The position numbers were made by a program. A stretch of 16,117 bases of DNA from a virus (taxonomy: Duplodnaviria > Heunggongvirae > Uroviricota > Caudoviricetes), in IMG/VR virus record IMGVR_UViG_2778261278_000003, positions 1-16,117 of that record; one strand, given 5' to 3'. How positions within the stretch are numbered: position 1 is the stretch's first letter; every line of letters begins with the position of its first letter. Of this stretch, positions 3,001-6,000 are shown in pieces.

Positions 3001-6000
3001 AAACGTATGCAAAGCCATGCACCTTATCGATGCATGGCTTTTTTCAGTAAAAACGGGCGGATTTTCGGGGAATTTTACACTGACTGACGTGATGCCAGTT
3101 GCGCACTTTTACGCGAAAAAATCATGTTCTGCGCAGGGGTGAATTTTTCACGGCTGTCATCCACCGAAGCCACGTCAGGCCTGAATCCGATGGTCGTTAA
3201 AATGTCGCTATCCTGTGCGGAATAATTAATTTTTTCACCCTTCGCAAGCCAGGACAGAAGGGCTTCACGCAGGGCATCTGTGGCACGCTGAATGGCACAG
3301 TTTCGGGCAATGACCGTCAGCTCACTGTAGCCCATCAGCTCCGGTGCCAGTGCCGCCGCCAGTGCTGTGCCGTGCTGCTGCATAAAATCATTCAGCCGGT
3401 CGCGGATGCTGATGTGCTGAACGGCTTCATGCGAACGAATATAACGACCGGCGGCCTGATTCACCTGCCATTTTCTGACTTCGATAATATTGCGTAATTC
3501 GTCCAGGCGACTGACGTTTCTGCCTTCTCCTGACAGAAGCCGCAGGTATTCCTGTTCGGCCGCTGCCAGCTCATTTTTGCGTTGCAGCCATGCTGCTTTG
3601 TTATTCTGACAGGTGTCAAAGGCCTGCTGTAAGGCTGTGCTTTCCATCGTTATCTCTTTCTCATCATGCTGAAGAATAAAAATACGGTGTGCGGCGACGG
3701 CCGGTGTTAACCGACAGCCCTCATTCCAGACGCAGCGAATATGATTGTGTTTTTAACCGTACTGGCGGCAGTTCCTGTTTTTCATGCAGGCTTTCTGCCA
3801 GTTCGTCCGGTGTGACCGGGCGGACAATGAAACGGTTGATGGTCTGAAGCGTTTTAAACACCAGACCACAGCCCGGATCCGTGCACACATAAAAACGCTC
3901 GGTGACTTCCTGAGACAGACGCCGCGATGTTCTTGACAGTGCAAGGCCTTTACATCTCCGACAACAATATCCGGTAACAAGCATTCTTTTCGGGCGTTTC
4001 ATACTGCCGGAGGCTGACGTCAGTGAATCGCGATATCTCTGTTTGCCTGAAATGTATTCCATTCCTGAATCTTTACAGTCAGAGAAAAAGCTTTCACTCG
4101 CTTCAAATGTCGCAGAGCAATAAATATTCCGGCACTGTGCAATCATTATCTTGGTGCCATCGTCCATGAAATGTGCGCGACGGGTGTGAGCAACATGTCC
4201 ACACGACGGGCAGTAAATCATGACAGCAGTCCTCTGGCCTTAAGCTCTGCTCCCTGCTGGTCTATTTTGTCCTGCCACACCTTGCGCTGTGCCGGTGTGC
4301 CTGCCACCTCATAATCCATGTGCGGGAGTGTTGCCGCTGACAGTCCGGTCAGCCGGAGAACCGGCTCACCGGTGAGGCTGATTTGCATCTGTTTTATTTT
4401 CTGTTCCAGCGATGATTTCACCTGCTGCATGACAGCTTTATCGGGTGCGACGTAGCCCTGATGGCCGGTGGTGTTGGCGAGCAGATTTTCCTGTACCAGG
4501 ATACTCAGATGCATTGCCCGGACAAGCGCCTCACAGGTTTCATTCAGGGCGTGTTCCAGCTCATGCTCTGCATACAGACTCAGAAGGTGATGATGTGCCT
4601 TCCGGTAGGCGGTGGCCGTGCTGTCACACGCCCCTTTCAGGCGTTCACGTTCGAAATTCAGCACCACGGCCAGATTGTCATATTCCTGTACCAGCTCCCG
4701 GCGTGCCACGCGCTCAATGTGGCGCTGTTTCAGCTCGTCGCTCAGGACACCACCGGCTGCACGAAAGGCCGTGCGCCAGTCGTCAGCGTCGTTTCCGTCG
4801 GCCTGCGCCAGCGCATTTTTTTCCTGCTCTGCCCGTTCAATGGCCGTGACGGTCTCATCCATCAGGCGGGCGTTCTCAAGGTGGGCGGCTCTGGCCTTTT
4901 CCAGTTGTGCCAGTGCGGGTTGCAGATATTCAGGGATGGTGTTGTCAGACATTTTCCGGCTCCTCGTCACTTCAGGTTAAGAAAATTGTGACGTACACCG
5001 GACAACAACACGACGCATTGCAGATGTGCCAGCCCTGACACAGGAAACTCATCCTCAGACCGGCAAGCCAGGAAAAGGTCGCAGGAAAAACCGGCTTACT
5101 GTTTGTTTTTTTATATTTTACTGTTCACCTCTGTTCACCATAAGAAAAAAGATAAGTAATACAGTAAGTTAAAGGGTGAACAATCGCAGTAATGACTGTT
5201 CACCGTCTGTTCACCACTGTTCACCCGTTGATGGGCTTTTTGTGCTGTTTACTACTGTTTGTTTTTATTAATTCGCCGGGAATGAATAAGAAAAAACGAT
5301 TTGTATTTCACTATAAAAATTACGAATTGCTTTAAGTGGCTTTAAATGACTTTAAGTGGAGATGAACAAAAAACACACAAGCATTGTAAGGCTGCCGGAA
5401 CAAATCCCCCCTGTTGCGTCTGCTGAAAATATTCACAAAATAAAGCGCTACCCGAAGCCGGACGGACTTATCCGGTGCTGTATGGACATTAACGAGGTAG
5501 CCCGATGCAAGCTGTTTTTTCTTCCCCGTCTCCCGCCCCTGTGACACCACTGATGCCGCTGCCGGACATCACGCAGGAGCGTTTTTTACGTCTGCCGGAA
5601 GTGATGCACCTGTGCGGCCTGTCACGCTCGACCATCTATGAACTCATCCGTAAGGGGGAATTTCCGCCGCAGGTGAGTCTTGGCGGTAAAAATGTGGCCT
5701 GGCTGCACTCTGAAGTCACCGCATGGATGGCCGGGCGCATCGCCGGACGCAAACGGGGGTACGACGCATGATGATGCCCGCTCTGCAAAAACTCCCTTTT
5801 TCTGGCTTGCCTTTTTCCGGCATTTGCGGATATAGTTTTTCCGCTGTCGCAAAATCGGCAGCCGGGCGTGGAAACCCGTGTAACTCGAAGGCGACATATG
5901 ACGCGCCATGCGTCTTTTTTTGTGTCGCAATCAACGCCACAGAGCGCCAGATTATGGTGTGGTGTGTGGTCAGTCGTGCAGATGGCATTCCGTGCATCCT

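What the first reader, a model, noticed from the sequence alone, without database searches (positions are those of the whole stretch)
5122..5225. Six-iteron ori-like cluster between the divergent late promoters
Six TGTTCACC octamers in about 100 bp (one inverted), flanked by AT-rich sequence, match the alpha-binding iterons of the P4 origin. The cluster lies between the P_sid and P_LL boxes, so origin binding and late transcription could interfere.
Basis: partly seen in the sequence, partly recalled or inferred. Interest (0 to 1): 0.45.

Follow-up and report, generated by a model that had tools for sequence, protein, structure and literature searches.

The report
Known P4 satellite replication origin
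The six repeats are the already described replication origin of satellite phage P4, here in a 98%-identical P4-like prophage inserted next to the ssrA gene of E. coli, so the finding is correct but ordinary.

Summary
Six exact TGTTCACC octamers lie at 5122-5225, one of them inverted; 0.6 copies are expected by chance in the whole window.

Window 2911-10253 is 98% identical to phage P4 (X51522). That record annotates these same six sites as 'ori type 1 repeat' inside 'origin of DNA replication'. All six octamers are identical to P4. Only two substitutions fall in the 104-bp span, both in the A/T-rich spacer.

The other parts of the replicon are intact:
- the alpha primase-helicase, whose C-terminal origin-binding domain is 100/100 identical to PDB 1KA8;
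- cnr;
- the second cis site crr (two 120-bp repeats carrying 5 exact and 5 one-mismatch octamers) just after alpha.

In 35 related elements from other Enterobacterales (alpha 63-85% identical) the cluster keeps its order, orientation and spacing. Iteron columns are 0.90 conserved, against 0.45 for the flanks. No DnaA box lies near it.

The cluster does lie between TGT-N12-ACA activator boxes (5025-5042 on the sid side, 5385-5402 on the orf88 side). It is 80 and 160 bp away from them, so there is no physical overlap. The 'interference' idea remains untested speculation.

Verdict: already known; low interest.

The parts
5122..5129 (+). ori type 1 iteron 1 (TGTTCACC)
   Evidence: Exact match. 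Corresponds to X51522 9406-9413, 'ori type 1 repeat'. Column conservation 0.77 across 36 elements.
5132..5139 (+). ori type 1 iteron 2
   Evidence: X51522 9396-9403. Conservation 0.88.
5140..5174 (.). A/T-rich spacer between iterons 2 and 3; the most likely DNA-unwinding region (inferred)
   Evidence: GC 20%. The least stable 30-mer of the intergenic region starts at 5140. Columns 5146-5174 are mostly about 90% conserved. The only two differences from P4 in the iteron span are here, at 5140 and 5144.
5175..5182 (-). ori type 1 iteron 3 (the inverted copy)
   Evidence: X51522 9353-9360. Conservation 0.96, the best-conserved copy.
5197..5204 (+). ori type 1 iteron 4
   Evidence: X51522 9331-9338. 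Conservation 0.90.
5208..5215 (+). ori type 1 iteron 5
   Evidence: X51522 9320-9327. Conservation 0.94.
5218..5225 (+). ori type 1 iteron 6
   Evidence: X51522 9310-9317. Conservation 0.93.
5097..5117 (+). T-rich 21-nt direct repeat, left copy (TACTGTTTGTTTTTTTATATT), bracketing the iterons
   Evidence: the repeat finder family D2. GC 14% in 5100-5121.
5253..5273 (+). T-rich 21-nt direct repeat, right copy (86% identical to the left copy)
   Evidence: the repeat finder family D2.
5330..5359 (-). three tandem 10-bp 'ori type 2 repeats' (CTTTAAGTGG / CTTTAAATGA / CTTTAAGTGG as read on the + strand)
   Evidence: X51522 9176-9205, 'ori type 2 repeat' x3. The repeat finder family D3. Not conserved outside close relatives.
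4726..5449 (.). span equivalent to the 'origin of DNA replication' feature of the P4 record (<9086..9809)
   Evidence: rep_origin feature in X51522. Coordinates converted as window = 14535 minus the P4 coordinate, from the gap-free alignment A1.
5025..5042 (-). TGT-N12-ACA activator (Delta/Ogr-type) box of the sid late promoter. A second box lies at 4987-5004.
   Evidence: Pattern match. A box is present at -138 to -161 (mostly about -148) from the inverted iteron in 34 of 35 related loci. Its role as a Delta/Ogr site is from established P2/P4 knowledge, not tested here.
5385..5402 (+). TGT-N12-ACA box of the leftward late promoter (P_LL) upstream of orf88/vis
   Evidence: Pattern match. It lies about 450 nt upstream of the isrK match that marks the P_LE transcript. 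An exact box at this position occurs in only 4 of 35 related loci.
7231..7551 (+). cnr (ORF106), regulator of alpha-dependent replication
   Evidence: Pfam DUF5375, 2.9e-63. Equivalent to ORF106 of X51522. Function is from established P4 knowledge.
7566..9908 (+). alpha: primase-helicase initiator with a C-terminal origin-binding winged-helix domain
   Evidence: Pfam Zn_Ribbon_Prim, Toprim_3, D5_N, DUF5906 and Pox_D5. Residues 671-770 are 100/100 identical to PDB 1KA8. 1.9% nucleotide difference from P4, plus a 9-bp insertion at 9897-9905.
9953..10253 (.). crr, the second cis-required replication region: two 120-bp direct repeats (9953-10072 and 10134-10253), each with five type 1 octamers (5 exact and 5 one-mismatch in all)
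   Evidence: the repeat finder D1, 81% identity between copies. Octamer list. X51522 annotates 'crr (cis required region for replication)' at 4291-4590 with 10 'ori type 1 repeat' features.

Best explanation
This is the vegetative and plasmid replication origin (ori, also called oriI) of a P4-type satellite prophage. The six TGTTCACC octamers are the 'type 1' iterons recognised by the C-terminal winged-helix domain of the element's own alpha protein. Alpha also binds the same octamers in crr, 4.7 kb away just downstream of its gene. Alpha is a zinc-ribbon/Toprim primase fused to an SF3 helicase. Once assembled on the iterons it would open the adjacent A/T-rich DNA (most likely the 35-bp spacer between iterons 2 and 3, or the T-rich flanks), unwind it and lay down primers, after which host polymerase takes over. 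Cnr (ORF106) restrains the process. Shown here: sequence identity with the annotated P4 origin, an intact cognate initiator with an identical DNA-binding domain, intact crr and cnr, and purifying conservation of the iterons and their spacing across genera. Taken from established knowledge: alpha binding, dependence on crr, independence from DnaA, and Cnr control. Inferred: the exact unwinding site.
For: - Six exact octamers against 0.6 expected in the whole window.
- 98% identity to P4 over 2911-10253. The six sites coincide with the six 'ori type 1 repeat' features inside 'origin of DNA replication' of X51522.
- Gap-free alignment with all octamers identical. Only two substitutions in the 104-bp span, both in the spacer.
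- Alpha is intact with primase, helicase and Pox_D5 domains. Residues 671-770 are identical to the solved P4 origin-binding domain 1KA8.
- crr is present with two 120-bp repeats and 10 octamers at one mismatch or fewer.
- In 33 of 39 loci examined in other genera the cluster keeps the architecture +(+)-+++ with spacing 10/43/21-22/11/10 bp.
- Iteron columns are 0.90 conserved, against 0.69 for spacers and 0.45 for flanks; Mann-Whitney p = 6e-5 and 4e-18.
- The region occurs in 1067 of 5426 complete E. coli genomes.
- No DnaA box lies within 2 kb of the cluster, consistent with an initiator that needs no DnaA.
[quoted passage not shown] Alpha is essential for P4 replication (PMC8628076).
Against: No evidence contradicts the explanation. 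Caveats:
- Activity of this particular prophage copy was not and cannot be tested with these tools.
- The primary P4 replication papers (Flensburg and Calendar 1987; Ziegelin et al. 1993; Diaz-Orejas et al. 1994; Tocchetti et al. 1999) are not held in the library. The mechanistic steps therefore rest on the GenBank annotation, secondary citations and my own knowledge.
- crr differs from P4 more than the rest does (4.3% against about 2%), although all the exact octamers are retained.
Confidence: 0.96

Rival explanations
1. The origin also works as a regulatory module coupled to the late promoters. In one version, alpha or alpha-Cnr bound to the iterons modulates Delta/Ogr-activated transcription from P_sid and P_LL. 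In the other, divergent late transcription helps open the origin.
For: The cluster lies between TGT-N12-ACA boxes. The sid-side box sits at a nearly constant distance from the inverted iteron (-138 to -161, mostly about -148) in 34 of 35 related loci. A strongly conserved block at 5060-5092 lies between the box and the iterons.
Against: The iterons are 80 bp and 160 bp from the boxes. By inference from the boxes being centred near -55, that places them at about -144 to -247 from the sid start and about -223 to -326 from the orf88-side start, so there is no overlap with activator or polymerase sites. The distance to the sid-side box differs by about 5 bp (half a helical turn) between the Enterobacter-type and Pantoea-type clades, which argues against phase-dependent contact. 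An exact box on the other side is found in only 4 of 35 loci. From my own knowledge, P4 replication in vitro does not require RNA polymerase.
Confidence: 0.1
2. The sequence is a true homologue of the P4 origin but is an inert relic in this chromosome, because the prophage is cryptic and never replicates autonomously.
For: P4-like elements are very common in E. coli (PMC8628076), and some are degraded. The neighbouring ypjA, ypjCB and recombinase genes are pseudogenes in the best-matching genome.
Against: Every P4 core gene in the window is a full-length ORF: int, psu, delta, sid, orf88, orf151, cnr and alpha. The CI RNA is present. ori and crr retain every exact octamer. Divergence from P4 is a uniform 1-3% with no disruptions.
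Confidence: 0.06
3. The octamer cluster is a chance or low-complexity feature, or an operator for a transcription factor unrelated to replication.
For: The inverted pair at 5175-5204 scores as a terminator-like hairpin in a simple scan.
Against: None of 200 shuffles reached the observed count. The same octamer recurs in crr, downstream of the initiator gene. The sites are annotated origin repeats in P4 and are conserved in register across genera. The hairpin is simply two iterons in opposite orientation.
Confidence: 0.01

Closest known systems
Phage P4 ori (oriI), GenBank X51522 / NC_001609, positions 9310-9413 within rep_origin <9086..9809
   Same: The sequence is the same (98% over the intergenic region, all six octamers identical). 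Order, orientation and spacing match. The position between sid and orf88 is the same, as are the type 2 repeats, alpha, cnr and crr.
   Different: There are two substitutions in the A/T-rich spacer (5140, 5144) and eight more elsewhere in the intergenic region. Alpha carries a 9-bp insertion at its 3' end. The element has a different integrase/att module and lies at ssrA rather than at P4's own attachment site. P4 homology stops exactly at the crr end and at cos.
P4 crr (cis replication region)
   Same: It carries the same TGTTCACC octamers and is bound by the same protein. It is present in this window at 9953-10253.
   Different: crr is two 120-bp direct repeats with mixed-orientation and partly degenerate octamers, located downstream of alpha. 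It is an auxiliary site, not the initiation site (established P4 knowledge).
Iteron-regulated plasmid origins (pSC101, R6K gamma, P1 oriR, F oriS)
   Same: Both have tandem short repeats phased at about one helical turn beside an A/T-rich unwinding region, bound by an element-encoded initiator. In both, a second iteron set elsewhere takes part in control.
   Different: No DnaA box lies near the cluster. The initiator is itself a primase-helicase fusion, not a Rep protein that recruits DnaA, DnaB or DnaG.
SaPI/PICI origins and other primase-helicase replicons (pRN1 ORF904, poxvirus D5 type)
   Same: In these satellites or plasmids, a multidomain primase/SF3-helicase protein with a C-terminal winged helix recognises the origin (PMC2777425; PMC4234260).
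   Different: pRN1 lacks iterons and uses a stem-loop, and its primase is of the prim/pol type. SaPI Rep and Pri are separate proteins (my own knowledge).

Membership tests
P4 ori (oriI) | Six type 1 octamers TGTTCACC in the arrangement + + - + + + within about 100 bp | tested here: met
   all six are exact and map one-to-one onto the X51522 features.
P4 ori (oriI) | Homologous genomic position, in the intergenic region between sid and orf88 (vis) | tested here: met
   the sid start is at 4952(-) and the orf88/AlpA start at 5505(+).
P4 ori (oriI) | A/T-rich DNA adjacent to or within the iteron cluster | tested here: met
   GC is 14-20% in 5100-5121 and 5140-5174, and these are the least stable stretches of the region.
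P4 ori (oriI) | Cognate initiator alpha, with the origin-binding winged-helix domain, encoded by the same element | tested here: met
   780-aa ORF with primase and SF3 helicase domains. The C-terminal domain is 100% identical to PDB 1KA8.
P4 ori (oriI) | Second cis element crr, carrying the same octamers about 4.5 kb away | tested here: met
   9953-10253, two 120-bp repeats, 10 octamers at one mismatch or fewer. The last ori iteron (5225) and the first crr iteron (9958) are 4.7 kb apart.
P4 ori (oriI) | Conservation of the iterons in homologous elements | tested here: met
   The architecture is kept in 33 of 39 loci from other genera. Iteron columns are 0.90 conserved against 0.45 for flanks.
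P4 ori (oriI) | Alpha binds the iterons, and replication that depends on alpha and crr starts here | not testable with these tools
   This needs EMSA or footprinting and a replication assay. It is supported only by homology to P4 and by literature statements.
DnaA-dependent iteron plasmid origins | DnaA box(es) next to the iterons | tested here: not met
   TTWTNCACA has one match in the whole window, at 2758, and none near 5000-5500.
P2/P4 late promoters (Ogr/Delta-activated) flanking the origin | TGT-N12-ACA dyad upstream of the late genes, and no sigma-70 -35/-10 consensus | tested here: met
   Boxes at 4987, 5025 and 5385. The sigma-70 scan finds no promoter-like site in 4900-5560. Transcription start points were not tested.

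The most novel reading that the evidence does not exclude
The near-constant distance between the iteron cluster and the sid-side activator box, together with the strongly conserved but unexplained block at 5060-5092 between them, could reflect a functional coupling between the alpha/Cnr-bound origin and late (capsid-size and transactivation) gene expression. That would link the satellite's replication state to its hijacking programme.
Probability: 0.08. Interest if true: 0.4.

Novelty: already known. Interest (0 to 1): 0.05.

Why it matters
It matters little beyond correct annotation. The result shows that this ssrA-linked island is a complete, probably replication-competent P4-type satellite. 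It also shows that the ori/crr/alpha module is kept nearly unchanged while the integrase and defence-hotspot modules have been swapped. The cross-genus conservation of iteron spacing gives a simple sequence signature, TGTTCACC in the pattern +(+)-+++ at 10/43/21-22/11/10 bp. This signature could be used to annotate origins in P4-like satellites, which current genome annotations leave blank ('none' under every E. coli hit).

Tried and rejected
- **Primary literature.** I looked for the primary P4 replication and late-promoter papers. A full-text search for TGTTCACC returned only unrelated primer lists. Searches for Psid/PLL/Vis/Ogr returned nothing relevant. Direct look-ups of Ziegelin 1993, Tocchetti 1999, Diaz-Orejas 1994 and Christie & Dokland 2012 were not held; the PMC ids were from memory. 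Mechanistic details therefore rest on GenBank annotation, secondary citations and my own knowledge.
- **DnaA boxes.** None lie near the origin, so I rejected a DnaA-assisted plasmid-type origin.
- **Promoter and terminator scan.** The sigma-70 scan found no promoter. The single terminator-like hit (5175-5204, minus strand) is just the inverted iteron pair, so I rejected it as a terminator.
- **tRNA scan.** It found nothing. The attachment site is the tmRNA gene just left of the window.
- **Hotspot ORFs.** PADLOC and Pfam gave no hit for the two hotspot ORFs.
- **Exact versus one-mismatch counts.** Exact-octamer counts in the Pantoea and Erwinia loci looked low. Allowing one mismatch showed the same architecture, so I rejected 'loss of the origin in distant relatives'.

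Full report
**Observation.** Reading 4800-5600 and searching the window for TGTTCACC confirms six exact copies. They lie at 5122, 5132, 5175 (minus strand), 5197, 5208 and 5218. The window holds 13 copies in all against 0.60 expected, and none of 200 shuffles reached 13. Five more copies cluster at 9958-10221 and two are isolated. The repeat unit is really a 10-mer, (A/T)CTGTTCACC. The five direct copies are phased at close to whole helical turns. The surrounding DNA is A/T-rich: GC is 14% in 5100-5121, 20% in the 35-bp spacer 5140-5174 and 31% in 5226-5329, against 55% for the surrounding element. The spacer holds the least stable 30-mer of the intergenic region.

**Identity.** Window 2911-10253 is 98.0% identical to satellite phage P4 (X51522 / NC_001609, positions 11624 down to 4291, reverse orientation). 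The 601 bp around the finding match at 98%.

The P4 record annotates an 'origin of DNA replication' (<9086..9809), six 'ori type 1 repeat' features and three 'ori type 2 repeat' features. With window = 14535 minus the P4 coordinate, the six type 1 repeats fall exactly on the six octamers. The type 2 repeats fall on 5330-5359.

A gap-free alignment shows all octamers identical. The 104-bp span differs from P4 at only two positions (5140 and 5144), both in the spacer, and the 552-bp intergenic region differs at ten positions.

**The rest of the replicon.**
- The ORF at 7566-9908 is alpha, with a zinc-ribbon primase, Toprim, D5_N/SF3 helicase and Pox_D5 domains.
- Alpha residues 671-770 are 100/100 identical to PDB 1KA8, the solved P4 origin-binding winged-helix domain.
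- cnr (ORF106, DUF5375) precedes alpha.
- Immediately after alpha lies crr: two 120-nt direct repeats at 9953-10072 and 10134-10253, each with five octamers, 5 exact and 5 with one mismatch in all. This matches the ten type 1 repeats annotated in 'crr (cis required region for replication)' of X51522.
- Rfam finds the P4 immunity RNA (C4 family, 6028-6115) and isrK (5843-5920).
- psu, delta (Ogr_Delta) and orf88 (AlpA) give the expected Pfam hits; sid and orf151 are full-length ORFs without a Pfam hit.

**Genomic context.** The best E. coli match (NZ_CP076272, 99.2% over the whole window) shows the order smpB - ssrA - integrase (window 1-1194) - two hypothetical genes - psu - delta - sid - [ori] - orf88 ... 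cnr - alpha - crr - ypjA remnants. P4 homology stops exactly at cos (2911) and at the outer end of crr (10253). The integrase/att module and the psu-int 'hotspot' cargo therefore differ from P4. This fits what is described for P4-like satellites (PMC9122126; PMC8628076). A degenerate copy of the ssrA 3' end at about 10393-10415, plus shared arm-type repeats, mark the right end of the element.

**Conservation.**
- The 342-bp ori-containing interval occurs in 1067 of 5426 complete E. coli genomes. It is unannotated in every listed hit.
- A scan of one genome per species with alpha returned 76 loci with alpha at 63-99% identity.
- Exact octamer clusters recur upstream of alpha and just downstream of it.
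- With one mismatch allowed, 33 of 39 loci examined show the same architecture, +(+)-+++ with spacings 10/43/21-22/11/10 bp. This includes Pantoea and Erwinia elements whose alpha is only 63-70% identical.
- In an alignment of 36 distinct sequences, iteron columns are 0.90 identical to the window. Spacers inside the cluster are 0.69 and flanks 0.45 (p = 6e-5 and 4e-18).
- Part of the A/T-rich spacer (5146-5174) is itself highly conserved.

**Mechanism.** Several points come from established P4 biology, cited from memory except where a call is given. Alpha binds the type 1 repeats of ori and crr through its C-terminal winged helix and then unwinds and primes (PMC4234260; domain organisation in PMC2777425). 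crr is required in cis. Replication needs neither DnaA nor the host primase or helicase. Cnr limits it.

Two results here are consistent with this. No DnaA box lies anywhere near the cluster. The lowest-stability DNA is inside and beside the iterons. Which A/T-rich segment melts first is my inference.

**The promoter claim.** TGT-N12-ACA dyads lie at 4987-5004 and 5025-5042 on the sid side and at 5385-5402 on the orf88 side. No sigma-70 consensus promoter is found in 4900-5560, as expected for activator-dependent late promoters.

If the boxes are centred near -55 (established knowledge for P2/P4 late promoters), the starts are at about 4978 (leftward) and about 5448 (rightward). The second estimate agrees with P_LL lying roughly 400 nt upstream of the P_LE transcript, which is marked here by isrK at 5843.

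The iterons therefore do lie between the divergent late promoters. They sit at about -144 to -247 from one start and -223 to -326 from the other, 80 and 160 bp from the boxes, so there is no overlap.

Across 35 related loci the sid-side box is present in 34, at -138 to -161 from the inverted iteron. The modal distance differs by about 5 bp between clades. An exact box on the other side is found in only 4. This gives no positive evidence for interference, and the half-turn difference argues against a phase-dependent contact.

**Verdict.** The finding is real and correctly interpreted, but it re-discovers an annotated, experimentally characterised element, the P4 ori. Novelty: already known. Interest: low.

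Noticed in passing
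window 5060-5092: The block CCGGCAAGCCAGGAAAAGGTCGCAGGAAAAACCGGC lies between the sid-side activator box and the first iteron. It contains two CAGGAAAA motifs 13 bp apart, framed by CCGG...CCGG. It is about 90% conserved across 36 elements from many genera, far more than its surroundings. I could not assign it a function.
   Followed up: partly
window 1227-2785 (ORFs 1227-1919 and 1886-2785, minus strand): Two overlapping ORFs (230 and 299 aa) occupy the psu-int 'defence hotspot' next to cos. They are A/T-rich and have no Pfam or PADLOC match. They may be an uncharacterised anti-phage cassette of the kind described for P4-like satellites (PMC9122126).
   Followed up: partly
window 1-1194 and 10253-10415; L003 955-1500: The element sits at ssrA (tmRNA), not at the P4 attachment site. 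P4 homology ends exactly at the crr edge (10253) and at cos (2911). A degenerate ssrA 3'-end copy lies at about 10393-10415. An arm-type repeat, ATTGGTATACGnTTAGGTATACG, occurs at 10317-10339 and also upstream of int. This looks like a swap of the integration module.
   Followed up: partly
window 9897-9905: Alpha carries a 9-bp in-frame insertion (CGACCCTCA, a local duplication-like repeat) at its extreme 3' end relative to P4. This makes alpha 780 rather than 777 aa. The insertion lies outside the 1KA8 DNA-binding domain.
   Followed up: no
window 5330-5359: The three 10-bp 'ori type 2 repeats' annotated in P4 are present here but are not conserved in more distant P4-like elements, unlike the type 1 iterons. 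They lie about 90-120 bp upstream of the inferred P_LL start.
   Followed up: partly
window 5097-5117 and 5253-5273: A 21-nt T-rich direct repeat (TACTGTTTGTTTTT...) brackets the iteron cluster, with copies 156 bp apart. Its first 6 nt resemble the start of the 10-mer iteron.
   Followed up: no
L040, L045-L047, L055, L057, L065, L066, L068, L070, L072, L078 (inside alpha, about +1766 and +2041 from its start): In Pantoea- and Erwinia-type elements an exact TGTTCACC lies inside the alpha coding sequence at conserved positions. The window's own alpha has none. It could be a coding coincidence or an internal alpha-binding site.
   Followed up: no
window 5843-5920 and 6028-6115: There are Rfam matches to isrK (71 bits) and to C4 antisense RNA (77 bits). 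These correspond to the P4 early leader and the CI immunity RNA region.
   Followed up: no
window 10927-16117: Beyond the satellite lie degraded island genes: ypjA autotransporter fragments (the 1011-aa ORF at 10927-13962), a recombinase/invertase fragment at about 14260-14400 and a frameshifted ypjCB. All are annotated as pseudogenes in the closest genome.
   Followed up: no
L004-L006, L035, L069, L076: Near-identical (98-99%) alpha genes appear on short contigs of metagenome bins labelled Ferruginibacter, Clostridiales, Ruminococcus and Dysgonomonas. An 81% alpha copy is in a 'Vagococcus' assembly. These are most likely binning or contamination artefacts from Enterobacterales DNA.
   Followed up: no
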